DNA from: a bacterium HR37
GTDB lineage: Bacteria; Desulfobacterota_D; UBA1144; Nemesobacterales; CSP1-2
Reading direction: 5' to 3'
DNA: 64,000 bases
Assembly: GCA_002898375.1 (NCBI GenBank)
Contig: BEIN01000012.1
Span: 3,922 to 67,921 of the forward strand
The first letter of the stretch is position 1, and every line of letters starts with the position of its first letter. Of this stretch, positions 5,025 to 64,000 are shown in pieces. Under the pieces are notes generated by a model. It was not told the DNA's origin. It did no database searches and saw only the letters and a program-made list of their open reading frames with translations. Both the position numbers and the translations under genes were made by a program.

Positions 5025-5501
5025 TTACATTTTGTACTTTCCAAAGTCACCAGGTGGAATCTTTTCAAGTAGCTCTGTAAGCTTTTCTTTTTCCTCCCCG
5101 CTTTCTAGCTTTCTTGATTTCTCAAGCACTTCCTCTTTTACATAGATTGGAGAACCTGTTCTAAGAGCTATGGCTATTGCATCACTTGGTCTTGAATCTA
5201 TAACGTATTCTTCATCTCCTCTTTTCAGGTATATCTCCGCGTAAAAAGTATCATCCCGTAAATCCGTAACCTCAACCTTCGTTACCGAGAACTTAAGGCA
5301 ATCCAGAACGTTTTTCATAAGGTCATGTGTAAGGGGACGTCCTCTCGGTGTTTTCTCCAACTCCATGGCTATCGAACTTGCTTCCATAAAGCCTATCCAG
5401 ATTGGAAGTATCTTCTCACCGGTAACATCTTTTAGAATAACGATAGGGGTGTTTGTAAACGGGTCCAATGCTATTCCTGATACCTTCATTTCTCGAACCA
5501 T
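5025..5501 (-). CDS. Bifunctional nuclease (BFN/DUF151) family protein
   Basis: 158 aa. The N-terminal pattern (GIALDPFTNTPIVILKD...ILPIWIG..EA.SIA) is typical of BFN domain proteins. Confidence 0.65.
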   Translation of the reverse strand: MVREMKVSGIALDPFTNTPIVILKDVTGEKILPIWIGFMEASSIAMELEKTPRGRPLTHDLMKNVLDCLKFSVTKVEVTDLRDDTFYAEIYLKRGDEEYVIDSRPSDAIAIALRTGSPIYVKEEVLEKSRKLESGEEKEKLTELLEKIPPGDFGKYKM

Positions 5502-5520
5502 GGTTCACCTCCATTCTTTA

Positions 5521-6819: not shown

Positions 6820-6992
6820 ATATTATAGAATGTAACGCTTTAGGAATACCAAGTCAAGCAAATAAGGGATGTTTGAAAGTTGGTTGTAAGTGCATAATAA
6901 TTAGTAAAAATTGGATTGACACGTTTGAGGAAATTTAGTAGGCTAGAGCCTAGTATCAATTACCGAGGAAAAAAGCTAGAGGAGCCAACCTG

Positions 6993-8378
6993 ATGAGTAA
7001 CGAAACTACAGAAGTTTCAGCAGGTAGGGAAGGCATATTTAGCTGGTATAAGGATATAAGCAGAAAGCAATGGCTTGCTTTTATTGCTGCTTTTCTTGGA
7101 TGGACACTTGATGCTATGGACCTTCTTCTTTATGTCTATGCACTCCCTAAGATTCGTGATACTTGGAATCTTACTGACAAGGAGGCTGCTTGGCTCTTTG
7201 GGGTTACTCTTTTTTCATCTGCTCTGGGTGGAGCCCTTTTTGGCATAATAACTGATTATATTGGAAGGATAAGAGCTCTTACCTATTCAATTCTTATGTA
7301 CTCGATATTTACAGGGCTTAGTGCTTTTGCTCCAAACGTGGAGTTTTTCCTTGTGTGCCGCTTTTTCTTGGGCCTTGGTATGGGAGGGGAATGGGCTTCT
7401 GGTGAGATCCTTGTAGCTGAAAGTTGGCCAAGACAGCATAGGGGAAAGGTTGTGGGTATGGTACAGAGCGGCTGGGGTATAGGGTATATACTTGCGGCTA
7501 CGCTTGCAATTATTATCCTACCACATGCTGATTTTGAGCTTTCTCTCCCTTACTTTGGGGACGTTTTTATTCACAGCTGGAGGGTTCTTTTCCTTGTGGG
7601 TATTCTTCCTGCCTTCCTTGTTTTCTTTATAAGAAGACACTGTGAGGAACCTGAGATCTGGAAGACAACTGCAGAGCTTAGAAAGCAGGGAAAACTGAGT
7701 GAGAAGGCTAGGACTTTTACATTTGTTCAACTCTGGAAGAAAGACCTTATCGGTTATACGATTAGAGCCACACTTCTTACGAGTTTTTGTATGATTGCTT
7801 ACTGGGGTCTTAACACATGGATTCCCACCTATCTTGCAAGCCCTGTTGAGAAAGGAGGGGCAGGTCTTGGTCTTATAAAGGGTTATGCGTGGACCATTTT
7901 TATAAACCTAGGGGCCTTTATAGGTTGCAACACATTCGGAGCCATAAGTGACAGGCTTGGTAGAAGACCTACCTTTGTAGGATACCTTCTTATAATGGCG
8001 ATTCTGGTTCCAATCTTTGGGGCTATAACCGAGGTGCAGAGGTTTATAGGGTTTTTGAGTGTAGAGACCCTATTGCTTATATTGGGACCGCTCCTTGGTT
8101 TTTTTGGTACCGGCTTTTACTCGGGTTTTGGTGCTTTGATGGCAGAGGTTTTCCCTACAAGGGCACGTGGTACTGCTCAGGGATTTTGCTATAATTTTGG
8201 AAGGGGTGCTTCGGCTCTTGCCCCTTATATATTTGCTGTTGTGGCAAGTATGCGGATACTGGGACACGATGTGGGATATGGCCTTTCCCTTATAACGGCA
8301 TCTGTGTTTGCTGTTCTTGCGGCTATAACAGTTCTTACCTTCCCTGAAACAAAGGGAAAACAGCTTGAGATTGAGTAA
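6993..8378 (+). CDS. MFS transporter
   Basis: 461 aa with about 12 predicted TM helices and an MFS signature loop (GRIRALTYS ... DRLGRR). Confidence 0.75.
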   Translation: MSNETTEVSAGREGIFSWYKDISRKQWLAFIAAFLGWTLDAMDLLLYVYALPKIRDTWNLTDKEAAWLFGVTLFSSALGGALFGIITDYIGRIRALTYSILMYSIFTGLSAFAPNVEFFLVCRFFLGLGMGGEWASGEILVAESWPRQHRGKVVGMVQSGWGIGYILAATLAIIILPHADFELSLPYFGDVFIHSWRVLFLVGILPAFLVFFIRRHCEEPEIWKTTAELRKQGKLSEKARTFTFVQLWKKDLIGYTIRATLLTSFCMIAYWGLNTWIPTYLASPVEKGGAGLGLIKGYAWTIFINLGAFIGCNTFGAISDRLGRRPTFVGYLLIMAILVPIFGAITEVQRFIGFLSVETLLLILGPLLGFFGTGFYSGFGALMAEVFPTRARGTAQGFCYNFGRGASALAPYIFAVVASMRILGHDVGYGLSLITASVFAVLAAITVLTFPETKGKQLEIE

Positions 8379-8416
8379 GTTGGTATAGATTTAGCAGAGT
8401 TAGTATATACGTTTTT

Positions 8417-8809
8417 ATGAGAGGACAAAGATACAGCAGGTACTTTACCGTTGAAGAAGCAAATGCTCTTATTCCTGAGCTGACCATGTTGATTGAGCGT
8501 ATAAGACTCATTAAATCAGAGGTTACCTCTAACATTGCAGAGCTAGAAGCTATTGTTAATAAGGCCCGGGCAAATGGAGGATACGGCAAGGGAACTACTT
8601 ATCTATCAAAGATAACCAGGTTTTATGATTATTTGAATCGAATAGAGGAGATGGGTTGCCTCCTAAGAGACATAGATCTGGGCATAGTTGATTTTCCATC
8701 TATTCATGATGGCAAAGAGGTGTATCTGTGTTGGAAGTTGGGGGAGGAAAGTGTCGGTTTCTGGCATGAGGTGGATGCTGGCTTTGCCGGAAGAAAACCA
8801 ATCCGCTAA
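8417..8809 (+). CDS. DUF2203-like hypothetical protein
   Basis: 130 aa soluble protein. The assignment rests on recalled similarity to a conserved DUF family only. Confidence 0.4.
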   Translation: MRGQRYSRYFTVEEANALIPELTMLIERIRLIKSEVTSNIAELEAIVNKARANGGYGKGTTYLSKITRFYDYLNRIEEMGCLLRDIDLGIVDFPSIHDGKEVYLCWKLGEESVGFWHEVDAGFAGRKPIR

Positions 8810-8960
8810 GTAAAAGTGTTTCTCTGTCCTTAGAGATATGCCCACTAATCATTCTTACATGCCTATTTTTTAAGCATTTGTCTTTTGGTTAGTTGGTGTA
8901 CTTTCCCCAAAAAACGCTTGAATATGTGTAACTTTGCATCTTAATCGTCTCCAGATGCTT

Positions 8961-8976
8961 TGGCACATATGTTGCA
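8961..8976 (+). promoter_or_regulatory. Sigma-54 (-24/-12) promoter: TGGCAC-N5-TTGCA upstream of amt
   Basis: Exact match to TGGCACG-N4-TTGCW spacing. GG is at 8962-8963 and GC at 8974-8975, about 40 nt upstream of the amt start. Confidence 0.6.
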
Positions 8977-9015
8977 AATACCCAAGAGGGTAAGTTTCCC
9001 TTAGGAGGTCAGAAT

Positions 9016-10542
9016 ATGAAAAGAAAAGTTTTAAGTACCCACAGGTTATGTAAGTCTCTTAACCTGATAAGTTACCTCTTTGTCGTTTTTCCCGTATTAC
9101 CAGTAAAGGTATTTGCTCAAGAATCCAGTATGGATGATATCCTGAAACAGATTTCAGATTTAAAGGTTACCGCTGATACAGTTTGGGTATTAGTTGCAGG
9201 CTTCTTGGTGTTTTTTATGCACCTTGGATTTGCTATGGTTGAATCTGGACTTTGCAGGGCCAAGAACACGGTAAACATACTTGCAAAAAACTTTATCGTG
9301 GTTGCAATTACGGCGCTTGCCTTCTGGATAGTTGGATGGGGACTTATGTTTGGAGATGGGAACGGCTTTATAGGTTACAAGGGGCTTTTTTTTCTTAGTG
9401 GACCTGACAATAGCCCTCAAACTGGGGAAGCTTACAGTGGGGTATATAGTGCAATAAGCTGGGCTGGGGTGCCGCTTTGGGCAAAGTTCTTTTTCCAGAT
9501 GGTGTTTGTGGCAGTGGGAGCAACTATTGTTTCAGGGGTAGTTGCGGAACGCATAAAGTTTGTTTCCTTTGTTATCTTTGCGTTCATTATCTCCGGGATT
9601 ATATATCCAATAACCGGTCACTGGGTATGGGGAGGTGGGTGGTTAGCTCAACTAGGTATGTGGGATTTTGCTGGCTCCACTGTTGTGCATTCAGTTGGTG
9701 GATGGGCAGCACTTGCAGGGGTTATTCTTCTGGGCCCTAGAATAGGTAAGTACAAAAAAGATGGAGGGGTTAATCCTATTCCAGGGCATAACATGATTGC
9801 TGCTACAATAGGGACTTTCATCCTGTGGTTCGGATGGTTTGGATTTAACCCGGGAAGTGTTATGGCAGCTTCTTGGAGTGATATAAGCAGGATAGCTGTA
9901 ACCACAAACAGTGCTGCTGCTGCTGCTACGGTTAGTGCTACAATACTTTCCTGGGTCGTTCTTAAAAAACCTGACCTGACTATGATACTTAATGGGTGTC
10001 TAAGCGGGCTTGTTGCAATTACCGCTCCCTGTGCCTTCGTTAGTGTGGGAAGTTCGGTTATTATAGGGCTTATTGCTGGGGTTCTTGCTGTGTTTGGTAT
10101 ACTGTTTTTCGATAAGGTTAGGATAGATGATCCGGTAGGTGCCTTAACTGTTCATCTGTTAAATGGTATATGGGGAACACTTGCTGTAGGGCTATTTGCC
10201 CAGGATGCTATAATGCCGGGAACAACAGGAGATGGACTCTTATTTGGAGGAGGAGTAAAGCTTTTATGGGCACAGTTTGTAGGTATAGTGGCGGTTGGAG
10301 CCTTTACTTTTGTCCTTTCTTTTATAGCATGGTTTATAATCAAATCCTTAATAGGACTCAGGGTATCTCCTGAGGAAGAGATTGAGGGGCTCGATATTGG
10401 TGAGCATGGAATCAGTGCTTATCCTGACTTTCAGCTGGCTGCAACTACCTTCTCTCCTGCTGGGTATCCCTTGATTCCCATGTCTAAGGAGAAAGCAGAG
10501 GCTATAAGCAAGGCATTTTTAAGTGAGAAGGAATCCCAGTGA
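9016..10542 (+). CDS. amt: Ammonium transporter (Amt family) with N-terminal signal peptide
   Basis: 508 aa with 11 TM helices. Amt signature present (VWVLVAGFLVFFMHLGFAMVESGLCRAKN ... HSVGGWAAL). Confidence 0.9.
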   Translation: MKRKVLSTHRLCKSLNLISYLFVVFPVLPVKVFAQESSMDDILKQISDLKVTADTVWVLVAGFLVFFMHLGFAMVESGLCRAKNTVNILAKNFIVVAITALAFWIVGWGLMFGDGNGFIGYKGLFFLSGPDNSPQTGEAYSGVYSAISWAGVPLWAKFFFQMVFVAVGATIVSGVVAERIKFVSFVIFAFIISGIIYPITGHWVWGGGWLAQLGMWDFAGSTVVHSVGGWAALAGVILLGPRIGKYKKDGGVNPIPGHNMIAATIGTFILWFGWFGFNPGSVMAASWSDISRIAVTTNSAAAAATVSATILSWVVLKKPDLTMILNGCLSGLVAITAPCAFVSVGSSVIIGLIAGVLAVFGILFFDKVRIDDPVGALTVHLLNGIWGTLAVGLFAQDAIMPGTTGDGLLFGGGVKLLWAQFVGIVAVGAFTFVLSFIAWFIIKSLIGLRVSPEEEIEGLDIGEHGISAYPDFQLAATTFSPAGYPLIPMSKEKAEAISKAFLSEKESQ

Positions 10543-10567
10543 GCAAGTAAAAAGTGGGTTTTGGTAA

Positions 10568-10607
10568 ACGGTATGCCCAAAAGAACGGGCATACCGTTTT
10601 TATTTTT
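10568..10607 (+). terminator. Rho-independent terminator after amt
   Basis: GC-rich hairpin ACGGTATGCCC / GGGCATACCGT with an AAAAGAA loop, followed by a T-run (TTTTTATTTTT). Confidence 0.55.
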
Positions 10608-10724
10608 ACGACTTTCAGATTTAGGTTGCCAATAAATGGGTCATATGTGATTAATTATTGGGCATGCTTTTTAGCTATCTATAATATGTTACCAATTTTT
10701 TAAAGTTTTCTAATCCCATATAGC

Positions 10725-10740
10725 TGGCATATTTCTTGCA
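10725..10740 (+). promoter_or_regulatory. Sigma-54 (-24/-12) promoter: TGGCAT-N5-TTGCA upstream of porin gene
   Basis: GG at 10726-10727 and GC at 10738-10739, the correct 10-nt GG-to-GC spacing. It lies 43 nt upstream of the 10783 start. Confidence 0.5.
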
Positions 10741-10782
10741 ATTATTCAGCATCTCAAAAAACAAACAAAAAGGAGGAGAAGG

Positions 10783-11946
10783 ATGATAAAGAAGATTATA
10801 GGCATTCTGGCTCTTGGGGTTATAGTTGTAACAGGCGGGGCGAATTTAGTATCTGCTGAAGAGGAAAATAAGGAAAGCAGGTTGTTGGATTTTCTTAAAA
10901 GCATAGAGGTGGGATTTTATCTGGATACATCCTACGAATATAACTTTAATAAACCTGAGTCTGGTAATAATTCTTTAAGGATATTTGACCAGGATCACAA
11001 CGATTTTAATATCCATATGTTTCAGCTTTCATTTAAAAGAACACCAAGTATGGAAGGTGGTATATCAAATCTGGTGGGTTTTGGGGTTAAACTGGATTTT
11101 GGTGAGGACGCTGATGTTATAGCATCAACTGGTTTGGGAGATGAAGATGATGAATTTGATCTTCAGGAGGCCTATATCCATATTCTTGCTCCTATTGGTA
11201 ACGGAATTAGTATATATGCCGGTAAATTCGTTACCCTTGCTGGAGCAGAGGTTATAGAGAGCAAGGATAATTTTAACTTCTCTCGCTCATTCCTTTTCGG
11301 GTTTGCAATTCCCTTTACACATACGGGAATAAGGGTTAATTATCCTGCGGGTGTGTTTGATTTTACCCTGGGGTTGAGTAACGGATGGGATAATGTTGAC
11401 GATAACAATGACGGAAAAACTATTGAGGCGAGAGTAGGCCTAAACTATGATATCTTCTCACTAGGTGTTGCTGGTTATTTCGGGCCTGAGCAGGATGGTA
11501 ATGATGATAACTGGCGTGAGCTTATAGATGTAGTTGCCACCTTTACTCCTTTTGAGAGGCTAACTCTTATGGCAAATCTTGATTTTGGGTGGGAGCAGGA
11601 CGTAAGTGATGTTGAGTTGGGATTGGATAATAGTGATGTATTCTGGTGGGGAATTGCTGGGTATGTAGCTTATGAGTTTAACCAGATGCTTAGTCTGGCT
11701 GTAAGGGCAGAGTACTTTGATGATAGTGACGGTTTTAGAACCGGAACGGAACAAAAGCTCTTTGAGATTACCCCCACTCTTTCCATAAAGCCTTTTGCTG
11801 GGCATGGTTCTTTAGATAATTTGATCCTTAGGGTTGAGTACAGATTCGATAGCTCCGATGAGGATGTCTTTGAAGACGACGATGGTAATTTTAAGGATAC
11901 CCAGCACACGGTAGCTACGGAACTAATTTACTACTTCTCGCTTTAG
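10783..11946 (+). CDS. Putative outer-membrane beta-barrel porin (signal peptide, alternating amphipathic strands, C-terminal aromatic)
   Basis: Signal peptide (LALGVIVVTGGANLVSA), Asp/Gly-rich alternating pattern, terminal ...YYFSL. Position next to amt and its own sigma-54 promoter suggest nitrogen-regulated uptake. Confidence 0.5.
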   Translation: MIKKIIGILALGVIVVTGGANLVSAEEENKESRLLDFLKSIEVGFYLDTSYEYNFNKPESGNNSLRIFDQDHNDFNIHMFQLSFKRTPSMEGGISNLVGFGVKLDFGEDADVIASTGLGDEDDEFDLQEAYIHILAPIGNGISIYAGKFVTLAGAEVIESKDNFNFSRSFLFGFAIPFTHTGIRVNYPAGVFDFTLGLSNGWDNVDDNNDGKTIEARVGLNYDIFSLGVAGYFGPEQDGNDDNWRELIDVVATFTPFERLTLMANLDFGWEQDVSDVELGLDNSDVFWWGIAGYVAYEFNQMLSLAVRAEYFDDSDGFRTGTEQKLFEITPTLSIKPFAGHGSLDNLILRVEYRFDSSDEDVFEDDDGNFKDTQHTVATELIYYFSL

Positions 11947-55458: not shown

Positions 55459-55734
55459 TTACACAACGATTACATCATCTTGTAGTACCCTCTTTACTGT
55501 TCCAAGCCTCTCAATCTTTTGAAGGCATCTGGGACAGAGTTCATAGAAGATTACGCTGTCTTCTTTTTTTATTATCTTCTCAACCTTTCTTTTCATTATA
55601 AGCAGGTTTGTATCACTAAGCCTACATTCAAAGACGCTTAGTTGCACAGGGGTTCCAAAACCCTCAAGGGTTTTAAACAGTTTTAACCTCCTCTTATCAT
55701 CTGTTATGTCGTAGGCAAGAACTATGTTTCTCAT
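55459..55734 (-). CDS. cas2: CRISPR-associated endoribonuclease Cas2
   Basis: 91 aa with the Cas2 pattern (LVLAYDITDDKRR.K..K.L..FG..VQ.SVFEC). It lies directly downstream of the cas4-cas1 fusion gene. Confidence 0.85.
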   Translation of the reverse strand: MRNIVLAYDITDDKRRLKLFKTLEGFGTPVQLSVFECRLSDTNLLIMKRKVEKIIKKEDSVIFYELCPRCLQKIERLGTVKRVLQDDVIVV

Positions 55735-57347
55735 CTAAGTGCAAAGGGTATGTATTCCTCTATCTCTCCCTTTATGAACTTGGCAAGGAGCCTTGCTTGT
55801 ATCTCAAATGCCCTGCGATAGCTTACCCGGTACTCAAAGATAGGATGCAGTATCTCAGATTGAATTTTTCCTATATAGGCCTTAAAGAAGGTTTCTCTAC
55901 CCTTTTCCTGTATGTATATGCCACCGAATCTTTCTTTAAAATCCTCTTTTGTAAACATGTTTCTGTTAAGAACGGATAAAACAAGTGAGTCCACTATTAC
56001 CGGACGAAACTCCTCCATCAGATCAAGTGCAAGGGCTGGTCTTCCATATCTTGTGGAGTGAAGAAAACCAATGTAGGGGTCAAACCCCACGGTGGATACG
56101 GTTGATATAAAATTACCCACAAGAAGACTATATCCGAAGCTAAGAAGGGCATTTACCGGGTCTCTAGGTGGTCGTTTTGTTCTCTTCTCAAAATCAAAGT
56201 CAAGCTTTGGTTTTAATAGCTTTCCAAATACTCTAAAGTAGTCTCTTGTTGCAATCCCTTCAAGACCAAGGAGTTCTTCTTTATCTCCTGCATCGGGTAT
56301 CCTGGTAATAACATTTTTAATCCGAATGCATGCTTCATCTATCTCTCTGTCCCCAAATTCCCTGTTTTGTCTTAGTAGAAGAGTTCGCATGTTAAGTAGC
56401 TTTCCCTTTACAAAGGACTTTGATACCTCTAGGGTAAAATCCCTGTCTATATGTCTTCTGTACTGCTCGATCCTCAAAAGAGAGTTTTTGTTCTCTTCGG
56501 GAACAAATTTACCCTCAAATCTACCGAATGTGGATTGATATACTATATCAACATTAAGCCTTAGGAGGAACTTTAGGGCTTGTGTGGATATGTTTGCGTT
56601 TGCTGATATAATTAACTGCCTAAGATAAGAGGCGGGTATCTCTGTTATAACTTTTCCGTCTTTAGTAACCGTAATCTTCCCTCCTCTCTTACCGATATAA
56701 GCACCGTGTTCGTCCACATAGAGGACTCTTCCGGTGTTGAGTTCGGTTATAATGCGTTTTGGTTTTTCCCCTTTTTCCTTAATAAACCTGGTTTCAAAGG
56801 GAAGGCATACAGAAAGCAGAGAACAACCATGACATCGTGTGTCTGCAACGGGTTCAGGGATCTCACCTCTGTAGAGTATTTCCCTGGCTTTATCTATTGC
56901 CTCAATGGATTTGTTTCTGAGTTCCTGACTAAATTCTACCCTTCTTCTTACCCTAGATGAGTAGTAGTATATGTATCCATATTGAACCGTTTTCCCCACG
57001 TGTTCTTCTAAAAGAAGTGCCTCAAGACAGAGTTGAACATCGTCTGAAAGGCTCTCCTTTAGGTATCCCCTTTTATACTCTATTGGGTAGATTTCTCCGT
57101 CATTTTCAACAGCATCAAGAACCCCAATTATACCAAGCCTTTCAGAAGAGAGGGTTATTTCTTTAACCTGTAGTTTTTCCTGTGTTCTAAGCCTTTCTCT
57201 TTCTTTTCTCTTCTCATCCTTAATGTTTCCTTCCACTACAAATCTGTTTACTGTGTTTTCTCCTTCGCATGCCCGATAGTAAAAGTTTCTTGGACAGAAT
57301 ACAAGCTCTGCAACCAGTGATACCGGTATAAGCTCATCCCACATCAT
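55731..57347 (-). CDS. cas1: Cas4-Cas1 fusion protein
   Basis: N-terminal Cas4/RecB nuclease with one N-proximal Cys (FCPRNF) and a C-x2-C-x5-C cluster (CHGCSLLSVC). The C-terminal ~340 aa form a Cas1 integrase fold (GRVLYVDEHGAYIGKRGGKITV...). Confidence 0.85.
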   Translation of the reverse strand: MMWDELIPVSLVAELVFCPRNFYYRACEGENTVNRFVVEGNIKDEKRKERERLRTQEKLQVKEITLSSERLGIIGVLDAVENDGEIYPIEYKRGYLKESLSDDVQLCLEALLLEEHVGKTVQYGYIYYYSSRVRRRVEFSQELRNKSIEAIDKAREILYRGEIPEPVADTRCHGCSLLSVCLPFETRFIKEKGEKPKRIITELNTGRVLYVDEHGAYIGKRGGKITVTKDGKVITEIPASYLRQLIISANANISTQALKFLLRLNVDIVYQSTFGRFEGKFVPEENKNSLLRIEQYRRHIDRDFTLEVSKSFVKGKLLNMRTLLLRQNREFGDREIDEACIRIKNVITRIPDAGDKEELLGLEGIATRDYFRVFGKLLKPKLDFDFEKRTKRPPRDPVNALLSFGYSLLVGNFISTVSTVGFDPYIGFLHSTRYGRPALALDLMEEFRPVIVDSLVLSVLNRNMFTKEDFKERFGGIYIQEKGRETFFKAYIGKIQSEILHPIFEYRVSYRRAFEIQARLLAKFIKGEIEEYIPFALR

Positions 57348-57958
57348 GACTCTCTGTATGTTCTTTTTACAGAAGGTATTTTTGAGTATCTGCCTTTCTC
57401 AAAGTGAAATAGCTCAATATTGTAGTGTGATAGCCCTATAAGCTGTCCTAACTGAAACCCAAGAACAACTGGCATTGATAGAAACAGTTGAATTTTTGGG
57501 CCCTTGTGTACGGTGTTTATTGTTCTAACAAAGTTCCACACCCTTTTTGCAATTGTGGGAAAAGCGGTTAGTGGTATCTCTTCTACATGGGAGATCAGGT
57601 ATTCTACGGGTCTTTCAAGCTGTATTCTTACGTCTTCTTCAATCTTTCTGGAGAATTCTACAACAAGTGTTATATCGTTTTCCAAAGCAGCTTTTTTAAT
57701 GTAGTTGTTTATCGCCGTTATATCGTTGTTTTGGATGAACTCTTTATAAGCACACATAAGGTCGTTTCCAAGCTCTCCTTTAAGTGATATCAAGGGTAAG
57801 GAGGGTGTTTTATCTCTGGTGTTGGTATCTTTTTTCTGATTCGCCAAGGATAGAGAACCTCTTCTTCTCACTCCTTTATTTACAGCAATCTGTATGACTT
57901 TCCCAAAGATAAGTCCAGAGACGCTTTCCAGTAAGGAGGTTGCAAGTATCTCAATCAT
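57344..57958 (-). CDS. Unassigned cas-locus protein (204 aa), translationally coupled to cas4-cas1
   Basis: Its stop overlaps the cas4-cas1 ATG (ATGA). The first ~26 aa are hydrophobic and the C-terminus carries a Gly/Leu-rich motif (LSMPVVLGFQLGQLIG). No family recognised. Confidence 0.4.
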   Translation of the reverse strand: MIEILATSLLESVSGLIFGKVIQIAVNKGVRRRGSLSLANQKKDTNTRDKTPSLPLISLKGELGNDLMCAYKEFIQNNDITAINNYIKKAALENDITLVVEFSRKIEEDVRIQLERPVEYLISHVEEIPLTAFPTIAKRVWNFVRTINTVHKGPKIQLFLSMPVVLGFQLGQLIGLSHYNIELFHFEKGRYSKIPSVKRTYRES

Positions 57959-58056
57959 GGTAAACGTTTTTTTCTCTTTTGGGTAATCTTAAAACAGTTA
58001 GGGATTTGGTTAAAGGTAGAGCAACCTTTCAGAAATATTTCAGATTATTTGGTTAG

Positions 58057-59139
58057 CTAAGTAAGGACTACAGGCCTTATCTTGCTTCTGTCAATGTGAA
58101 TTCCGTATCTTGTATGGCCATAAACTCTTTTTTGCCCTAATGGGGTTATTTTGTAATATATTGCTATCTTTTTATCATCAAGGGCATTTTCTATAGCCCT
58201 GTTAATCTTACTTATATCCTGGAGTAGATTCTCTGTAGAGAATTTATATCTTCTGAGATCAGCATCTGGTATCATGCTTTTTATATAAGACTTAATATCA
58301 TCCAGGTTGTTTTTTATCGAGTGTGTTCCTTTAAGTGCCTGAAAGCACTCTTCTTCGCTCATGTTAAGTCTTCTCTGTACGAAGTAGGTGTATAGAGCCA
58401 GGAGTTTGGGATTTAGTTTTATTTCCCTATTTCCAATTAGCAATCTCCTATTTTTGAGATCAACTTGAAGGGAGTACAGTGAGGGGCTTATATCTATTTC
58501 CCTCTGGGCTATCTTAACCAGTTCACTGAACGAGAATTTTTCAGAACCAAACAGATTGTCTAGCTTCCCTCTTAACCTTACGTAAGGAATCTCAGCTAGG
58601 TGAATGGGTGCTTTTTCTCTTCTTGATTTTGATGGATAAAAGAAGCTCTTGTTCTGTTCCAGTTTTTCATCTACAAGGACATGTGAGAGAGTATCTTCCT
58701 TTCTTCCAAACAGCATAAGGGCATAGGCAAGGTAGATAGACATTGTTTTTCTTCCTCCTGCAATGGAGCAGTGAAGAATGACATCTGGATCTTTTGTCTT
58801 TTCTTTTATAAACTCTGTAATCTGGTCCGCAACCAGCTCATTATCTTTTACGGTGCGTATATCCTTAAGTGGTTTTCCTTTTGAGTCTTTAAGCAGTATT
58901 ATGGAATCTTCACCAAATTGGATTGATGATGGAGTTATACCATATTCTTTACAGAATGATAAAAGCATCTTTTTGTTGATGAGTTTATCTACAACCTCTT
59001 TTTTCCCGTTTAAAGTTGTTATGACAATGATTCTTGATATTCTGGCAGGAGGTTTCTTTATTTGGGTAAGGTAGTATAGTGTTTCTGTTATAACTTGAGG
59101 ATTAAGTCCAGCAACTGCGACGAGTATTTCCTCTTTCAT
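58057..59139 (-). CDS. CARF-domain protein with C-terminal wHTH-like region (Csa3/Csx1-like sensor, no HEPN motif)
   Basis: N-terminal Rossmann-like CARF motifs (ILVAVAGLNPQVITETLYYL ... ILHCSIAGGRKTMS). The C-terminal stretch (KLNPKLLALYTYFVQRR...) looks like a winged helix. No R-x4-6-H found. Confidence 0.55.
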   Translation of the reverse strand: MKEEILVAVAGLNPQVITETLYYLTQIKKPPARISRIIVITTLNGKKEVVDKLINKKMLLSFCKEYGITPSSIQFGEDSIILLKDSKGKPLKDIRTVKDNELVADQITEFIKEKTKDPDVILHCSIAGGRKTMSIYLAYALMLFGRKEDTLSHVLVDEKLEQNKSFFYPSKSRREKAPIHLAEIPYVRLRGKLDNLFGSEKFSFSELVKIAQREIDISPSLYSLQVDLKNRRLLIGNREIKLNPKLLALYTYFVQRRLNMSEEECFQALKGTHSIKNNLDDIKSYIKSMIPDADLRRYKFSTENLLQDISKINRAIENALDDKKIAIYYKITPLGQKRVYGHTRYGIHIDRSKIRPVVLT

Positions 59140-59465
59140 CGTTTTCTTTTAACCTTAGTCTGAACCTTTCTCTGTTCTACTATATTTAAACCAGAAAGAT
59201 AACTCATTCAACCTGTAAATACTATTATGTATAACCTTAAATTTTACCTCTTCTTTTCTAAACCAAGCCCGTTTAAATTCCAAGAAAAACATGATCAAGC
59301 ACTCTCTCTATACCCGAGCTGAATGCTGAAGCCTTTCTATGCATTTAAACTGTTATACCTGTTGCAACAGGTATATAGGTTCAAACCGTCAAGTAGTATA
59401 TAGGATTTCAACTTATTTTATAGGTTCCCGTATCAGGTTTGATAAGACTGATATTGCATAAATGC

Positions 59466-59633
59466 TTAAAGCGTTATTCGTCCTCTCCCAAAAATAAGAG
59501 ATATTACAAATAAGACCAGGAAAAGTATAAATAGAATCTTTGCAATACCTGCTGCGGTGCCTGCAATACCACTGAATCCTAAAACTCCTGCGACCAATGC
59601 TATAATTAAAAAAACTGCTGCCCATCCCAGCAT
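59466..59633 (-). CDS. UPF0391/DUF1328-family small membrane protein (55 aa), not in ORF track
   Basis: ATG with ribosome-binding site GGAGGTAGG. Translation [55 protein letters not shown] matches the conserved YtjA-like pattern (GFSGIAG.A..IAKILF). Confidence 0.55.
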
Positions 59634-59844: not shown

Positions 59845-60665
59845 TGTGAAATTCCCTACGGGAATTAGAGGTATTTCTACAAGTGATAATCTCCACTTCC
59901 TACCTCTGGAGACTGCAAAAGGGGCGTTTCAATTCCCTACGGGAATTAGAGGTATTTCTACCTGGTAAGAGACTTTGTGTCTTTTGTTGGTTCTACTACC
60001 ACTCATGTTTCAATTCCCTACGGGAATTAGAGGTATTTCTACGTAGAACTGGTACGTGAGAAAGTAACAATTCCAACGAAGTTTCAATTCCCTACGGGAA
60101 TTAGAGGTATTTCTACCCACGTCATACCTTTGAGGTGGCTCACGATATTATTGTTTCAATTCCCTACGGGAATTAGAGGTATTTCTACAAAGACTGTCAA
60201 CAAACCAGAACCTTCTCCACTCCTTAACAACGAGTTTCAATTCCCTACGGGAATTAGAGGTATTTCTACGAAATACTAACTGTTTCTCTAGTCCGTGTAT
60301 TATCACCAACTTATGACAAGAGTTTCAATTCCCTACGGGAATTAGAGGTATTTCTACGGAACAATAATGCTACCTGTCTGCCTTGACCTTACAAGTTTCA
60401 ATTCCCTACGGGAATTAGAGGTATTTCTACCGTATCACCCTACGGAGAACAATATCCGCTTGCTTGACTGTTTCAATTCCCTACGGGAATTAGAGGTATT
60501 TCTACTAGTCAAAACAAGAGGGCTAACATACGAACAGGCAAGGGAGATCCTGTTTCAATTCCCTACGGGAATTAGAGGTATTTCTACTTGCCTGTCTTGG
60601 TACTAAAGTCAGTGATGATGTATGGAAATGTTTCAATTCCCTACGGGAATTAGAGGTATTTCTAC
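59845..60665 (-). CRISPR. CRISPR array: 11 x 36-nt repeats, consensus on + strand GTTTCAATTCCCTACGGGAATTAGAGGTATTTCTAC, 10 spacers of 36-52 nt
   Basis: Repeat starts are 59845 (degenerate: ATGTGA instead of GTTTCA), 59926, 60007, 60081, 60153, 60234, 60322, 60395, 60470, 60552 and 60630. Spacer lengths are 45, 45, 38, 36, 45, 52, 37, 39, 46 and 42 nt. The internal palindrome is TTCCCTACGGGAA. The strand is inferred: on the minus strand the repeat ends ...ATTGAAAC, the classic Cas6 8-nt handle, and the degenerate repeat is at the low-coordinate (distal) end. Confidence 0.95.
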
Positions 60666-60968
60666 AGCACCCTTATTTTCTCTAATGATTTAAATGAGTT
60701 AGTATGCAGTTTTCGAGAACCTCTAGTTATCAACAACTTATCCACAGGACAATTTTTGTCAATGTTACATAACCCATTTAAATCACTTGATTTTCTAAAT
60801 TCGAGCAACCCCCCACTTTTTTGCATTCCCTCGATGCTCGATGAAAATAATTATCATTATTACCTGATAAATATTAAAAATTAAGTTTTCAAAGAACCGA
60901 TTTCACTGAACAAGTGCTTTAAGCTCAATCTTAGTAAATTTAAAATCCCATGTCAATACTTTTTTATA
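60666..60968 (-). promoter_or_regulatory. Putative CRISPR leader (AT-rich, between csm6-like stop and first repeat)
   Basis: A 303-nt AT-rich non-coding stretch that abuts the intact terminal repeat. It lies downstream of the effector genes in the minus-strand direction. Confidence 0.4.
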
Positions 60969-62090
60969 TTATCCGTTAAAATATGTTTCATTCAGGTCAA
61001 CAAGTGCAGCCTTTAAAGTAACCTTGTTTTGTGAGGGAATCTCCACATTAAACTTTGCGGTTCTTTTTCCATCGCTGAATATAAGCACAATCTTGTTATG
61101 GTTGGGGTCGAATTCGAATCTGTTCCTTTCCGGCAAATCTGGATGTGTGTAGAAATCTCTAATAGTTTTTACGTATCTTTTATCTCTCCATACCTTCTTT
61201 ACAAAAGTTTCTGCTCCAAAGGGTGGCCTGTGATAAAAGTGTTTGGAAAAAGCAGGTTCTTCTTTAACCGGTTGAATGTCTCCAAGCAGGTAGCTCTTTT
61301 CTTTTTTAAACCTGTAGAGAAACATTTCATGAAAGAGTTGGCCAACCGGAGTTAAGGCAACGTGTTTTTCTTGGTTTATTGTTTCCACTTCTATAAGTGT
61401 TTTTAACCTCTCATCTGCCACCAGTTCTTTTACTTCTTCATACGGAGCTATGCTCTTTTTGGAGAGGTTGTCCAGGCTTTCATAATGTAGAAGCCAGAGA
61501 TCAAAATTAAAACTTATAGGCTGGGGAGGAAGTTCTATTATGTCTTCAAATTTTTCAAACATATACATAACCGGTATTTCCAGAGCCTGTCCTATAAGGC
61601 CTGCAAATGAGGTTTGCGCTTTATATCCTCCTGTAGCGTTTATAACAATACGTTCCGTTCCTTTTTCTCTTACGATCTTTGCAATCTCTTTCACAAGATT
61701 TTTAAGTCCTTCAGTTTTAAACTTTTTTACATCGTAGTCTTTAAGGCCTTCTATTACGGTTGCAACTACCCTCTCAAATTTATAGGGGTTCTGAGAATCC
61801 TGATAGTAGTGCTTAAGTATTTCACCTATTTCCCAGCCTTCATCGGTATGAGAGATAAGAAGGTGAAGTTCGTTTCTTTCCGAAAGTTTCCCTTTTTCAA
61901 TGATACTTGTAATGGAGTTTATCTCGGCTCCGCATACTCTATCTCTTGGATTTCGTTTAAGCAGTTCTTTTACAAGGCCTATAATGTTTCCTTTTTTCTC
62001 ATATACTTTTAGAGGCTCTTTATCATCTAGCCGTTCGATGTTGCTAAGCAGGCTTGTCCCCACTGTGCAAATCAGTGTATCACGCCTCAT
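60969..62090 (-). CDS. CARF-HEPN protein, Csm6/Csx1-like (putative cOA-activated RNase)
   Basis: N-terminal CARF motifs (LICTVGTSLL ... INATGGYKAQT) and a C-terminal R-x4-H motif (IRDFYTH). Its start overlaps the cas6 stop (ATGA). Confidence 0.6.
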   Translation of the reverse strand: MRRDTLICTVGTSLLSNIERLDDKEPLKVYEKKGNIIGLVKELLKRNPRDRVCGAEINSITSIIEKGKLSERNELHLLISHTDEGWEIGEILKHYYQDSQNPYKFERVVATVIEGLKDYDVKKFKTEGLKNLVKEIAKIVREKGTERIVINATGGYKAQTSFAGLIGQALEIPVMYMFEKFEDIIELPPQPISFNFDLWLLHYESLDNLSKKSIAPYEEVKELVADERLKTLIEVETINQEKHVALTPVGQLFHEMFLYRFKKEKSYLLGDIQPVKEEPAFSKHFYHRPPFGAETFVKKVWRDKRYVKTIRDFYTHPDLPERNRFEFDPNHNKIVLIFSDGKRTAKFNVEIPSQNKVTLKAALVDLNETYFNG

Positions 62091-62896
62091 TGCTTTACCC
62101 TTACTGCTTGTCCCATTCCCATTGTGGTTTTATATCCTATCCCTGAGTAAAAAGCAAAATCGGCAAGGGTATTTAAAATCTTTTTTTCTTTCCGGACAAA
62201 TTCTTTTCCCAGTCTGTATTCTAGTATACCTTTAAACCCTATAACCTTGTAATTTGAGAAAGTTACAATCTCGCTTTTTAACTCAAACTGTGATGGATAG
62301 ATTGTGTTTAGTTTCTCTGTAAAGCTTTTGTCAAAGGTTATACCTGAAAATGAGTTCCATCTATCAATCAGAGAGCCAAAGATGAGGTAGGCTTCGGGTA
62401 ATGTACACTGCTTTCCCCTGATTCTGAAAGAAGTGGGTGAGAAAAACTTAAGTCGTATTTTGTCATCTGGTTGTGCTTCCTCAAACAGTTTGGGGTAGAG
62501 GGATGACCTTACCCAAAGATTTGAACTTTCCTTATAGTGTATGTTATTAAGAAGTATCTTTCCGTTTCCCAGTGTAAGGCTGGTTTTAAGGTTTAGGGCT
62601 TTCCCAAATGCAGCAAGGGTGTCAGGAAGAAGTTTTTCTTCCAGTATGGATATTCTAAAGGAGGCCTTTTCCCCACCTTCCAGTATTATTTTCCCTTCGG
62701 TTTTTGGTTTTTTCTCAAGAATGCCGGATAGTGAAAATGGTTTTTGTCTATTGCTTCCATTGTGGAGGTACTCTGCCACTTTTTTGGAGTAATTTTTTAA
62801 GACCTCAAAGAAAAGCCCGTGTATTGCTTCTCCCCCATAGCCATTTAGGACTATAGCCTCTAGGGTTTCAAACTCGATAACAAAGCTTGAGAGCAT
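62087..62896 (-). CDS. cas6: CRISPR repeat endoribonuclease Cas6
   Basis: C-terminal glycine-rich loop GIGYKTTMGMG (GhGxxxxxGhG) and a ferredoxin-like N-terminus. Its start overlaps the upstream RAMP stop (TAATG). Confidence 0.85.
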   Translation of the reverse strand: MLSSFVIEFETLEAIVLNGYGGEAIHGLFFEVLKNYSKKVAEYLHNGSNRQKPFSLSGILEKKPKTEGKIILEGGEKASFRISILEEKLLPDTLAAFGKALNLKTSLTLGNGKILLNNIHYKESSNLWVRSSLYPKLFEEAQPDDKIRLKFFSPTSFRIRGKQCTLPEAYLIFGSLIDRWNSFSGITFDKSFTEKLNTIYPSQFELKSEIVTFSNYKVIGFKGILEYRLGKEFVRKEKKILNTLADFAFYSGIGYKTTMGMGQAVRVKQ

Positions 62897-64000
62897 TACT
62901 CGACCTCTATTCTGATCCAGCCAAGTGTTAATTCTTCTTTTGTTGCTGGATTTATTACAACTTTTCTGGTTTTTGGAAAGTTACTTGTATTTATTCTTCT
63001 ACCTGTGGTTTTAAGAAGTTCAACGTAGTTTCTATAGGTTTCATCTCCCAGGTGTTTTATAAGTTTTGCAAGTGTTATGCTTATAAAACCTTGATGTTTT
63101 CCAATCCTTATTACTGGGGCATTTTCGCTATTGGTCCTTTTTATGTTCTCAAGCTGGCTTATTGCACTGTATACCTTTAACTTTCTGTAAAAATCAAGTT
63201 CCTCTTCAATGATTTCCTTAGACATTTCATAACATGCTTTAAGTACCTGATCAAGATTGCCAAAAAAAGATTTTTTCTGAATATCTGTACCAAAGTGATT
63301 TGCAAAATCTTCGAACTGTTTTCCTTGTATAATTCCAATTTCTCCTTGAAACTCGGTATTACTTGAAATAATTTCGTGAAATTCCCCTGTGATTCGGGAA
63401 CTGTTTTTAATTTGTATCTTTGCTATTATTCTTTCCGCATTTTTAGAATAAGCATCGGATACAAGTATAAACTTTAAAAAATCAAATTTGGCATCATTTC
63501 TAAGCCTTAGAACTTTTTGAGAGATTTTCTCCTCTAATTTTTTCAATTCTTCTCTAACTTCTTTTCTATTGCCTAGGGACTTTCTTTTAATTTTATTTAT
63601 CTCATTGGAAAGGAAGCTGGTTAAGGAGCTATCAAGAATTAACTTCCTAAGAATAGCTGTTCTTAGTGCCCCTTTAATCTCAGTACCCGGTATGTAAGGT
63701 TGGTTTCTTGATTTGATAAGTGTCCAGATTTTTTGAGGAGTTTCACTGCCCCATAAAGGCAGTGAAGAAGAAGCTCTTTTAGAGGCGAACTTTAATATTT
63801 TCTCAGTATTGCTATATGTTTCAAAAAAACCCAGAAGACTGGGTGATTCGCTGTTGGTGACGTATTGAATAAAATCCTCAAGTTGGTCTTTTGTTAGGAA
63901 TCTCTTTAGCTGTTCGGAGTTAAACAAATGGATTTTTCTGTTATAGTAGAAGTATTCTAAATTGCTTAAGGTGTTTCCATCACCTATATGGATTGGGGAA
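62896..64000 (-). CDS. Type III RAMP protein, Csm5-like (Cas7 group), 5' end beyond window
   Basis: Contains the RAMP motif YIPGTEIKGALRTAIL. The ORF-track start at 63927 is a TTG, and the frame stays open upstream to the window edge (...SPIHIGDGNTLSNLEYFYYNRKIH-L-FNSEQ...). Confidence 0.6.
   Translation of the reverse strand, partial: SPIHIGDGNTLSNLEYFYYNRKIHLFNSEQLKRFLTKDQLEDFIQYVTNSESPSLLGFFETYSNTEKILKFASKRASSSLPLWGSETPQKIWTLIKSRNQPYIPGTEIKGALRTAILRKLILDSSLTSFLSNEINKIKRKSLGNRKEVREELKKLEEKISQKVLRLRNDAKFDFLKFILVSDAYSKNAERIIAKIQIKNSSRITGEFHEIISSNTEFQGEIGIIQGKQFEDFANHFGTDIQKKSFFGNLDQVLKACYEMSKEIIEEELDFYRKLKVYSAISQLENIKRTNSENAPVIRIGKHQGFISITLAKLIKHLGDETYRNYVELLKTTGRRINTSNFPKTRKVVINPATKEELTLGWIRIEVE

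What the first reader, a model, noticed from the sequence alone, without database searches (positions are those of the whole stretch)
58057..59139. CARF protein with a winged-helix-like C-terminus but no HEPN motif, sitting between the array and the adaptation genes
The CARF motifs are clear (ILVAVAGLNPQVITETL; CSIAGGRKTMS). The remaining ~170 aa lack an R-x4-6-H HEPN signature and look like wHTH plus an extra C-terminal segment. This fits a Csa3-like cOA-responsive transcription factor that could regulate the array or adaptation. It could equally be a CARF effector with a novel output domain.
Basis: partly seen in the sequence, partly recalled or inferred. Interest (0 to 1): 0.55.

Follow-up and report, generated by a model that had tools for sequence, protein, structure and literature searches.

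The report
CRISPR signal-sensing transcription factor with operator
This gene encodes a known but untested type of CRISPR accessory protein that probably senses the type III alarm molecule and switches on neighbouring CRISPR genes, and I found the DNA site it most likely binds, just upstream of the spacer-acquisition genes.

Summary
Window 58057-59139 (minus strand) encodes a 360-aa CARF protein with no HEPN motif in its C-terminal half. It lies between an 11-repeat CRISPR array and a SAVED4-cas4/cas1-cas2 operon.

It is a full-length member of the known TIGR02584 / Cas_NE0113 family (CARF5 clade). Makarova et al. (2014) already predicted that family to be effector-less transcription regulators.

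New here:
- **DNA-binding domain.** Residues ~224-355 model confidently as one OmpR/PhoB-type winged helix. This is not the MarR-like domain of Csa3 and not an enzyme.
- **Candidate operator.** A tandem GAAAYRTTTC-N-GAAAYRTTTC motif occurs 80 times in 51 of 84 homologous loci (0-2 in shuffles). It sits upstream of the CARF5 gene, of cas10 and of cas2.
- **Promoter geometry.** TTGnnn starts 6 nt after the motif and TAnnnT 29 nt after it, an activator-like arrangement.
- **In this window.** The only site in 64 kb is 58021-58041, 16 nt after the CARF5 stop and ahead of SAVED4-cas4/cas1-cas2.

Most likely function: a cA4-sensing, possibly self-limiting, activator of cas operons. This is a new member of a known kind with a directly testable regulon. 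Nothing is shown biochemically.

The parts
58057..59139 (-). Gene for the 360-aa CARF5 (NE0113/TIGR02584) protein with a winged-helix C-terminal domain
   Evidence: ORF. Pfam, NCBIfam and PADLOC matches. 100% identical to NCBI 'hypothetical protein HRbin37_01604 [bacterium HR37]'.
58555..59139 (-). CARF domain, residues 1-195. Motif I is GLNPQ (res 11-15) and motif II is AGGRKT (res 127-132).
   Evidence: AF2 model pLDDT 92.4. Nearest solved structures are the Cad1 CARF domain (TM 0.72 over the target) and the Crn1 proteins Sso2081/Sis0455. Invariant residues listed in alignment A1.
58471..58554 (-). Linker with one long helix, residues 196-223
   Evidence: Secondary structure of the models.
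58060..58470 (-). OmpR/PhoB-type winged-helix domain, residues 224-360: three-stranded sheet, a1 244-259, a2 275-289, recognition helix a3 302-320 (…QDISKINRAI…), and wing hairpin 331-347
   Evidence: Foldseek against the PDB: top hits are CadC, BaeR, RpaA, SaeR, PhoP, VicR, KdpE, PhoB and OmpR DNA-binding domains. Profile A2 against PDB sequences: KdpE E 0.001. S310, I312, Y345 and G346 are at least 90% conserved.
58021..58041 (-). Candidate operator GAAATATTTC-T-GAAAGGTTGC, 16 nt after the CARF5 stop codon
   Evidence: The only match in the 64-kb window (24.6/28.1 bits of a maximum 36). Homologous sites sit at the same position in L001, L003, L008, L010 and L012.
57986..57991 (-). Predicted -10 hexamer TAAGAT, starting 30 nt after the operator, with a weak -35 around 58009-58015
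   Evidence: Sequence. In the family, TAnnnT starts at +29 in 30 and at +30 in 9 of 79 sites. No canonical promoter was found by the consensus scan.
57344..57958 (-). 204-aa SAVED4-type protein with a hydrophobic N-terminus; first gene of the predicted target operon
   Evidence: PADLOC SAVED4--SAVED E 3.7e-40, Pfam SAVED 1.9e-6. Homologues lie downstream of CARF5 in 7 loci.
55731..57347 (-). cas4-cas1 fusion (Cas4g/Cas1g type); its start overlaps the SAVED4 stop by 4 nt
   Evidence: NCBIfam NF049935, 601 bits. Coordinates.
55459..55734 (-). cas2; its start overlaps the cas4-cas1 stop by 4 nt
59845..60665 (-). CRISPR array: 11 repeats of 36 nt. The leader side is 60666-60968. The repeat at the low-coordinate end is degenerate.

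Best explanation
The gene encodes a one-component, cyclic-oligoadenylate-sensing transcription factor of the NE0113/CARF5 family.

**Proposed mechanism**
1. The N-terminal CARF domain dimerises and binds the type III second messenger, most likely cA4. It has the D...GGRK pocket of cA4-binding ring nucleases.
2. The signal passes through a linker helix to an OmpR/PhoB-type winged-helix domain.
3. That domain recognises two 10-bp units (GAAAYRTTTC) spaced 11 bp apart, so both lie on one face of the DNA.
4. In the family these sites end 5 bp upstream of a -35 hexamer. The protein therefore most likely acts as an activator at about -61 to -41.
5. Its targets in the family are its own promoter, cas10 effector operons and cas2/cas1/cas4 adaptation operons.
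6. In this window the single site precedes SAVED4-cas4/cas1-cas2. Type III target recognition would thus raise expression of a second sensor protein and of the spacer-acquisition machinery.
7. The CARF domain may also cleave cA4 and so switch the factor off again. In this protein, however, the usual catalytic Thr/Ser of motif I is Asn.

**Shown here (computationally):** family membership, the fold of both domains, the motif and its positions, and the promoter geometry.

**Inferred:** that this protein is what binds the motif, the identity of the ligand, the sign of regulation, and any ring-nuclease activity.
For: - **Family.** TIGR02584 at 185.6 bits and a full-length CARF5 profile match. There are 3028 homologues, most of them full length at 360-400 aa.
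- **DNA-binding domain.** High-confidence models. PDB neighbours are nearly all OmpR/PhoB domains. KdpE profile hit at E 0.001. The recognition helix and the wing are the best-conserved C-terminal parts.
- **Gene context.** cas10 lies within the available flanks in 50 of 86 CARF5 loci. The CARF5 gene usually sits directly upstream of cas10, or of cas2/cas1, on the same strand.
- **Motif abundance.** GAAATATTTC occurs 40 times against 1.7 expected in 1.22 Mb. The tandem form gives 80 distinct sites in 51 of 84 loci against 0-2 in shuffles.
- **Motif positions.** 26 sites lie upstream of CARF5 and 24 at its stop codon. 8 lie upstream of cas10 and 9 upstream of cas2; these two counts overlap the stop-codon class.
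- **Promoter geometry.** TTGnnn starts at +6 in 31 of 79 sites and TAnnnT at +29 in 30 of 79. Background is about 2 per offset.
- **Window.** One site in 64 kb, at 58021-58041. It is syntenic with sites in five close relatives.
- **Reciprocal search.** Of about 35 metagenome contigs that carry the exact motif and are not part of a repeat family, 12 carry cas genes.
- **Helix-motif link.** 49 of 50 proteins with the canonical recognition helix have a site, against 13 of 30 with a divergent helix.
- **Ligand pocket.** The Sis0455 residues S11/D75/R105/K106 (PMC9638899) align to T13 (N13 in this protein)/D93/R130/K131. The CARF5 relative Cad1 binds and cleaves cA4 (PMC12669630).
Against: - There is no biochemical or expression evidence of any kind.
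- Pfam Trans_reg_C does not match the C-terminal domain. Foldseek E-values are weak (0.02-1), and the sequence-profile hit covers only the sheet and helix a1.
- The motif could be bound by another factor that travels with these loci. The loci were chosen because they contain CARF5, and the helix-motif statistics are not corrected for phylogeny or for flank length.
- In this window the promoter-proximal unit is degenerate (6 of 10) and the -35 is poor, so the operon could simply be read through from the CARF5 gene.
- In close relatives the CARF5 gene follows csm6 in an operon and is not always next to adaptation genes.
- The exact motif also occurs in an unrelated ORF-poor repeat family.
- The cas10 promoter of this genome lies outside the window and could not be fetched.
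Confidence: 0.6

Rival explanations
1. The protein is mainly a stand-alone ring nuclease, as the NCBI product name says. It would degrade cA4 to switch off the other CARF/SAVED effectors of the locus. The winged helix would be structural, as in the long Crn1 proteins (CARF+HTH), and would not regulate genes.
For: - NCBIfam names TIGR02584 'CRISPR-associated ring nuclease Csm6'.
- Motif I G-x-T/S-P, D93 and R130-K131 match the catalytic and binding residues of Sis0455.
- The CARF5 relative TaqCad1 cleaves cA4.
- Structural neighbours include Crn1 Sso2081/Sis0455.
- The locus holds at least two other cOA sensors that would need switching off.
Against: - The Crn1 model scores 24.3 bits against a cut-off of 125.
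- This protein has Asn in place of the catalytic Thr/Ser, which 2 of about 80 aligned homologues share.
- It does not explain why the recognition helix and wing are the most conserved C-terminal parts.
- It does not explain the conserved promoter-linked motif at the gene's borders.
- It is not exclusive: the protein could be both a regulator and a ring nuclease.
Confidence: 0.15
2. It is a cOA-released repressor. In uninfected cells the protein sits on the tandem sites and keeps cas promoters low, and cA4 binding removes it.
For: The evidence for DNA binding is the same as for the main explanation. Many one-component regulators are repressors. In Csa3 proteins the effect of ligand differs between paralogues (PMC8844856).
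Against: The sites end 5 bp upstream of the -35 hexamer and do not overlap -35, -10 or the transcription start. Many associated -35 hexamers are weak, as in activator-dependent promoters. Geometry alone does not settle the sign of regulation.
Confidence: 0.18
3. It is a cOA-activated effector whose C-terminal domain is a new enzymatic or toxic output module.
For: The C-terminal 165 residues match no Pfam family. Most homologues carry a Cys4 insertion there.
Against: The domain folds confidently as a winged helix, with no enzymatic neighbour among the top PDB matches. There is no conserved catalytic-type residue set, because no C-terminal column is invariant. There is no HEPN motif.
Confidence: 0.03

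Closest known systems
Cas_NE0113 / TIGR02584 family (CARF5 clade of Makarova et al.)
   Same: Full-length profile match. It has the same motifs I and II, the same 360-400 aa architecture, and the same type III association. The family was predicted in 2014 to regulate transcription because it lacks an effector domain (PMC4012209).
   Different: This subclade lacks the CxxC…CxxC insertion found between a1 and a2 in most members. It has Asn13 instead of Thr/Ser in motif I. It sits after the array and ahead of SAVED4 and the adaptation genes rather than ahead of cas10.
Csa3 (Csa3a/Csa3b) CARF-wHTH transcription factors of type I-A systems
   Same: CARF sensor plus winged-helix output. Csa3 binds cA4, and Csa3a activates adaptation genes and arrays (PMC8844856). 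The role predicted here is equivalent.
   Different: The CARF clade differs, and no Csa3 model matches at E of 0.01 or better. Csa3 is a smaller protein (the solved Csa3 chain 2wte_B is 210 residues) with a MarR-like wHTH, whereas here the domain is OmpR/PhoB-like. Csa3Sso has no ring-nuclease activity, whereas this family keeps ring-nuclease-type residues. This family is bacterial and linked to type III.
OmpR/PhoB-family response-regulator DNA-binding domains (Trans_reg_C), including ToxR/CadC-like one-component forms
   Same: Same fold order: N-terminal sheet, a1, a2, recognition helix a3, wing hairpin. Binding sites are tandem units one helical turn apart next to the -35 region, as at pho boxes (the pho-box comparison rests on established knowledge).
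   Different: Pfam Trans_reg_C does not match. The helices and the a1-a2 and a2-a3 connections are longer, about 130 aa against about 100 aa. The input is a CARF domain and not a phosphorylated receiver. Each DNA unit is itself palindromic.
Cad1 (CARF-adenosine deaminase), the characterised CARF5 member
   Same: Closest solved CARF domain (TM 0.72 over the target). It shares the GG(R/I)K(T/S)MS and HVL motifs. It binds cA4/cA6, and TaqCad1 cleaves cA4.
   Different: Cad1's output is an ATP deaminase hexamer. Here the output is a DNA-binding domain.
Crn1 ring nucleases (Sso2081/Sis0455 and the long CARF+HTH forms Sso1393/Sis0811)
   Same: Similar motifs (GTSP/GLTP, GGRK) and structural similarity. 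The long forms also have an HTH domain (PMC9638899).
   Different: They belong to other clades, CARF_m13 and CARF7. The Crn1 model scores far below its cut-off. No operator or regulatory role is known for them.

Membership tests
Cas_NE0113 / TIGR02584 (CARF5) | Score above the curated cut-off of the family models | tested here: met
   TIGR02584: 185.6 bits against 80.65. PF09623: 133.5 bits against 23.
Cas_NE0113 / TIGR02584 (CARF5) | Full-length architecture of the CARF5 'CARF-only' group, including the conserved C-terminal region | tested here: met
   PADLOC PDLC01904 matches residues 3-355 to profile positions 2-348 of 351, E 7.7e-94. Homologues cover 96-100% of the query.
Cas_NE0113 / TIGR02584 (CARF5) | CARF motif I (G-x-T/S-P-Q…ET) and motif II (S-x-A-G-G-R-K-T) | tested here: met
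   G11, P14, Q15, E19, T20, S125, G128, G129, R130, K131 and T132 are invariant in A1. Position 13 is Asn here where nearly all homologues have Thr/Ser.
Cas_NE0113 / TIGR02584 (CARF5) | Association with type III CRISPR-Cas loci | tested here: met
   csm5, cas6 and the array lie upstream in the window. cas10 lies within the flanks of 50 of 86 homologous loci.
Csa3 | Match to Csa3 family models | tested here: not met
   No Csa3 model appears among the Pfam, NCBIfam or PADLOC hits at E of 0.01 or better. There is only a weak CARF-level structural match to 2wte (rank 47).
Csa3 | [quoted passage not shown] | tested here: not met
   The protein is 360 aa. Its C-terminal domain resembles OmpR/PhoB domains and not MarR.
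Csa3 | Binds cA4 and controls cas/adaptation promoters | not testable with these tools
   Only indirect evidence: a conserved pocket and an operator-like site ahead of cas4/cas1-cas2.
OmpR/PhoB winged-helix domain (Pfam Trans_reg_C) | Sequence match to the Pfam model | tested here: not met
   Trans_reg_C is not among the families listed when the 32 C-terminal sequences were scanned at E up to 1. A family profile does reach the KdpE, MtrA and BasR DNA-binding domains in the PDB (best E 0.001), but only over the sheet and a1.
OmpR/PhoB winged-helix domain (Pfam Trans_reg_C) | Fold: N-terminal antiparallel sheet, three helices with a3 as recognition helix, C-terminal hairpin wing | tested here: met
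   Model elements E224-241, H244-259, H275-289, H302-320 and E331-347. About 40 of the top 50 Foldseek PDB hits are OmpR/PhoB-family domains, with TM over the target of 0.5-0.66.
OmpR/PhoB winged-helix domain (Pfam Trans_reg_C) | Recognition of tandem sites about one helical turn apart near the -35 region | tested here: inconclusive
   A tandem motif with an 11-bp period lies 5 bp upstream of -35 hexamers. Binding by this protein is inferred, not shown.
Crn1 ring nuclease | Score above the cut-off of NF040581 | tested here: not met
   24.3 bits against a cut-off of 125.
Crn1 ring nuclease | Catalytic Ser/Thr in motif I together with the Arg-Lys pair and the positioning Asp | tested here: inconclusive
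   D93, R130 and K131 are present. The Ser/Thr position is Asn13 in this protein.
Csm6/Csx1 CARF-HEPN effectors | C-terminal HEPN domain with an R-x4-6-H motif | tested here: not met
   No such motif in residues 190-360 and no HEPN-like structural neighbour for the C-terminal domain.

The most novel reading that the evidence does not exclude
The NE0113/CARF5 proteins would be a widespread bacterial class of cA4-gated OmpR-type activators. They would form a positive feedback loop: type III target recognition produces cA4, which induces the regulator itself, the cas10 effector operon and the cas1/cas2/cas4 adaptation operon. In this genome a membrane-anchored SAVED4 protein would also be induced. 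A built-in ring nuclease would act as the timer. This would be the bacterial, type III-centred counterpart of archaeal Csa3a, built from unrelated CARF and DNA-binding clades, with a defined operator of two GAAAYRTTTC units 11 bp apart.
Probability: 0.35. Interest if true: 0.7.

Novelty: new member of a known kind. Interest (0 to 1): 0.55.

Why it matters
How type III CRISPR signalling feeds back on expression of CRISPR genes in bacteria is largely unknown. Within the held literature, the characterised CARF transcription factors are Csa3-family proteins studied in type I CRISPR contexts. The NE0113 family is large (about 3000 relatives found here) and often sits at the head of cas10 operons, yet I found no experimental study of it.

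A defined protein, a defined 21-bp candidate operator and a predicted regulon (its own gene, cas10 operons and adaptation operons) turn the 2014 prediction 'probably a regulator' into simple experiments. If confirmed, infection sensing by type III systems would be linked directly to induced spacer acquisition. It would also provide a compact cA4-responsive promoter switch.

Tried and rejected
- **Tandem Repeats Finder** found nothing in the array region because the spacers differ. The repeat finder recovered the 11 repeats.
- **Single-sequence search against the PDB** gave only a marginal Cad1 CARF hit.
- **Pfam on the C-terminal domain** gave noise only.
- **Makarova 2020 CARF census** is not held under the DOI or the PMC id I tried, the latter recalled from memory. 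I could not check whether it already describes the C-terminal domain.
- **Palindrome at 59344-59385** was considered as an operator. It is unique in the window and was not searched for in the related loci, so it is left unexplained.
- **120-aa gene downstream of CARF5** in L001/L004 was tested as a possible SAVED relative. It is a lipoprotein-like protein and unrelated.
- **Genes between CARF5 and cas10** in other loci are heterogeneous insertions, not a conserved partner.
- **Reciprocal motif search in metagenomes** was swamped by an ORF-poor repeat family carrying 4-5 GAAATATTTC units. I judged this unrelated and probably eukaryotic.
- **Rest of this genome's contig.** Attempts to fetch it to inspect the cas10 promoter failed.
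- **Literature searches** for the motif and for CARF-OmpR fusions found nothing relevant.
Full report
**1. Observation**

The ORF lies on the minus strand, from 59139 down to 58057, and encodes 360 aa.

The match to CARF families is very strong:
- Pfam Cas_NE0113: E 1.2e-38.
- NCBIfam TIGR02584: 185.6 bits against a cut-off of 80.65.
- PADLOC 'CARF5--CARF': residues 3-355 of 360 match profile positions 2-348 of 351, E 7.7e-94.

The protein is identical to 'hypothetical protein HRbin37_01604 [bacterium HR37]'. R-x4-6-H patterns exist only at residues 146, 173 and 174, all inside the CARF part. None lies in residues 190-360.

All neighbours are on the minus strand. In order of transcription they are:
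- csm5 (62896-63927)
- cas6 (62087-62896)
- a second CARF protein of the CARF7/DUF2103 type (60969-62090)
- leader and an 11-repeat array (about 59845-60665)
- a 55-aa DUF1328 gene (59466-59633)
- the CARF5 gene
- a 204-aa SAVED4 protein (57344-57958)
- a cas4-cas1 fusion (55731-57347)
- cas2 (55459-55734)

The last three genes overlap by 4 nt each, so they form one operon.

**2. The two domains**

A 53-sequence alignment (A1) gave an AlphaFold model with mean pLDDT 92.4.

*CARF half.* It is closest to the CARF domain of Cad1 (9c68/9c69, TM 0.72 over the target) and next to the Crn1 ring nucleases Sso2081 and Sis0455. Cad1 is the one characterised CARF5 member (PMC12669630).

A family profile aligns motif I (family GLTPQ, GLNPQ here) to the GTSP motif of Sis0455. 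It aligns motif II (AGGRKTMS) to GGRKGMS. In Sis0455, S11 positions the attacking 2'-OH, D75 positions R105, and R105/K106 bind cA4 (PMC9638899). The equivalents here are N13 (Thr or Ser in nearly all homologues), D93, R130 and K131. D93, R130 and K131 are invariant in the family. TaqCad1 binds cA4 at 13 nM and cleaves it.

I therefore infer cA4 binding. Ring-nuclease activity is possible for the family but uncertain for this protein.

*C-terminal 165 residues.* Modelled alone (alignment A2), they give pLDDT 91.7. The order of elements is:
- linker helix
- three-stranded sheet (224-241)
- helix 244-259
- helix 275-289
- helix 302-320
- hairpin 331-347

Foldseek against the PDB returns almost only OmpR/PhoB-family DNA-binding domains: CadC, BaeR, RpaA, SaeR, PhoP, VicR, KdpE, PhoB, AdeR, OmpR and others. 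TM over the target is 0.5-0.66 and E-values run from 0.02 to about 1. Independently, an HMM built from A2 finds the KdpE DNA-binding domain (E 0.001) and other OmpR-family regulators as its top eight PDB hits.

Pfam itself does not recognise the domain. The best-conserved C-terminal positions fall in the recognition helix (…SKIN…) and the wing (…RYG…). Most homologues carry a CxxC…CxxC insertion after helix 1, and this subclade lacks it.

No enzymatic fold appears.

**3. Genomic context in relatives**

Eighty genome loci and several metagenome loci were compared.
- cas10 lies within the available flank in 50 of 86 CARF5 loci.
- The CARF5 gene is typically the gene directly upstream of cas10 on the same strand. 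The gap is often under 160 bp, sometimes with one unrelated inserted gene.
- A second recurrent position is directly upstream of cas2/cas1/cas4.
- In the closest relatives (56-65% identity) it follows csm6 or the array. In WIN, L003, L007, L008, L010, L012 and L052 it is followed by a homologue of the small SAVED4 protein.

**4. A conserved cis-element**

Counting k-mers in the 300 bp upstream of the CARF5 genes showed strong enrichment of pieces of the palindrome GAAATATTTC. For example, AATATTTC occurs in 26 of 79 regions against 2.1 expected.

*Abundance.* The 10-mer occurs 40 times in 1.22 Mb against 1.7 expected from base composition. It is nearly always one of two units spaced 11 bp apart. 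Allowing 4 mismatches in 20 positions gives 80 distinct tandem sites in 51 of 84 non-redundant loci, against 0-2 in shuffled sequence.

*Positions*. The cas10 and cas2 counts overlap the stop-codon class (7 cas10 sites and 1 cas2 site are also stop-codon sites).

| Position | Sites |
|---|---|
| Within 300 bp upstream of the CARF5 start | 26 |
| At the CARF5 stop codon (-25 to +120) | 24 |
| Within 300 bp upstream of cas10 | 8 |
| Within 300 bp upstream of cas2 | 9 |

*Promoter geometry.* When the sites are oriented by their T-rich flank, TTGnnn starts at +6 in 31 of 79 and TAnnnT at +29 in 30 of 79 (+30 in 9 more). Background is about 2 per offset. That is a sigma-70 -35/-10 pair with a 17-bp spacer, which puts the tandem site at about -61 to -41. 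This is the geometry of an activator next to the -35 region, not of an occluding repressor.

*In the window.* A position matrix built from 59 sites finds exactly one site in the whole 64-kb window, at 58021-58041 (24.6/28.1 of 36 bits). It lies 16 nt after the CARF5 stop codon. A TAAGAT hexamer starts at +30 and the -35 is weak.

*In close relatives.* L001, L003, L008, L010 and L012 each have a site beginning at the CARF5 stop codon. L007 has one between CARF5 and its SAVED gene. L001 and L012 have a second site in the intergenic region at the head of the type III effector genes.

**5. Is this protein the binder?**

This step is inferred, with three supports.
1. The motif travels with the gene across many phyla.
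2. A reciprocal scan of metagenome contigs for the exact motif returned 120 loci. About 85 of them belong to one ORF-poor repeat family that is unrelated. Of the other roughly 35, 12 carry cas10, cas1, cas2, csm6 or CARF5 on the same short contig.
3. 49 of 50 proteins with the canonical recognition helix (.Q.[IVLMF][SA]K[IVL][NKRS]) have a site in their locus, against 13 of 30 with divergent helices (Fisher 1.7e-8). Tyr at position 308, compared with Asn/Ala, goes with C rather than T at base 5 of the half-site (p 0.003).

Neither statistic in point 3 is corrected for phylogeny or flank length, so I treat both as suggestive only.

**6. Mechanism proposed**

A CARF dimer senses cA4 made by the type III complex. 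The signal changes how the two OmpR-type domains engage the tandem site next to the -35 hexamer, and transcription is activated.

In most genomes the targets are the regulator's own gene, the cas10 operon and the adaptation operon. In this window the target is the SAVED4-cas4/cas1-cas2 operon. Ring-nuclease activity of the CARF domain, if retained with Asn13, would end the response.

The rivals are a pure ring nuclease, a cOA-released repressor and a novel effector. Each is set out in the Rival explanations section with the experiment that would exclude it.

**7. Comparison with known systems**

*What it works like.* It works like Csa3a, a CARF-wHTH factor that binds cA4 and activates adaptation genes (PMC8844856). 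It is not a Csa3 member: no Csa3 model matches, and the DNA-binding domain is OmpR/PhoB-like rather than MarR-like.

*What it is.* It is a bona fide member of the NE0113/TIGR02584 family. Makarova et al. wrote in 2014 that this family, like Csa3, lacks effector domains and is predicted to regulate transcription (PMC4012209). The NCBI product name 'ring nuclease Csm6' is a family-level label. I found no experimental paper on this family in the held literature. The 2020 CARF census could not be read.

**8. Verdict**

- The protein is a new member of a known, computationally predicted kind.
- What this analysis adds: the identification of the output domain type, a statistically strong candidate operator with activator-like promoter geometry, and a predicted regulon that in this window points at the adaptation operon.
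- All functional steps remain to be tested.

Noticed in passing
window 57344-57958 (-): A 204-aa protein with a C-terminal SAVED4-type domain (PADLOC E 3.7e-40) and a hydrophobic N-terminal helix followed by a basic cluster, so it may be membrane-anchored. Homologues follow the CARF5 gene on the same strand in 7 loci, including a distant alphaproteobacterial one (L007). Its start is preceded by the candidate operator, and it is translationally coupled to cas4-cas1.
   Followed up: partly
window 59466-59633 (-): A 55-aa DUF1328 (UPF0391) small membrane protein gene with a strong AAGGAGG ribosome-binding site sits between the CRISPR array and the CARF5 gene (Pfam E 9.1e-17). It has no evident link to CRISPR.
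   Followed up: partly
window 59344-59385: A 42-bp imperfect palindrome with a perfect core TACCTGTTGCAACAGGTA, unique in the window. It lies about 215 bp upstream of the CARF5 start, just after the DUF1328 gene. It is not GC-rich and not followed by a T-run, so it is not a typical terminator. Its function is unknown, and I did not search for it in the related loci.
   Followed up: partly
window 60969-62090 (-): A second CARF protein (373 aa) matches the PADLOC 'CARF7--CARF_DUF2103' profile over its full length (E 6.3e-115), with weaker similarity to CARF-RelE profiles. It is a likely cOA-activated effector of this locus. A similar gene accompanies CARF5 in 12 loci.
   Followed up: no
window 55731-57347 (-): The adaptation module is a Cas4-Cas1 fusion of the 'Cas4g/Cas1g' type (NCBIfam NF049935, 601 bits), here attached to a type III (csm5/cas6) locus.
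   Followed up: no
alignment A1, columns ~420-450 (between residues 259 and 275 of the window protein): Most family members carry a four-cysteine insertion (C…CxxC…CxxC, probably a zinc knuckle) between helices 1 and 2 of the winged-helix domain. The window protein and its closest relatives have lost it.
   Followed up: no
L088-L207 (metagenome contigs, many from sample Ga0209679): About 85 contigs share a repeat element with 4-5 tandem GAAATATTTC units and conserved flanks (…cgtgaaattttt / cacgccaaaaaa…). The contigs have almost no long ORFs and no cas genes, so this is probably a eukaryotic or mobile repeat that coincidentally shares the 10-mer.
   Followed up: partly
L003 (JGI Ga0137716_10000544) 3908-11556: A related metagenome contig has the same flanking housekeeping genes as the window: peptidase M16, CDP-alcohol phosphatidyltransferase, PS decarboxylase, ketol-acid reductoisomerase and the acetolactate synthase subunits. 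It lacks the cas4/cas1 genes between them and CARF5/SAVED4. The adaptation module is therefore a variable insert at this chromosomal position.
   Followed up: no
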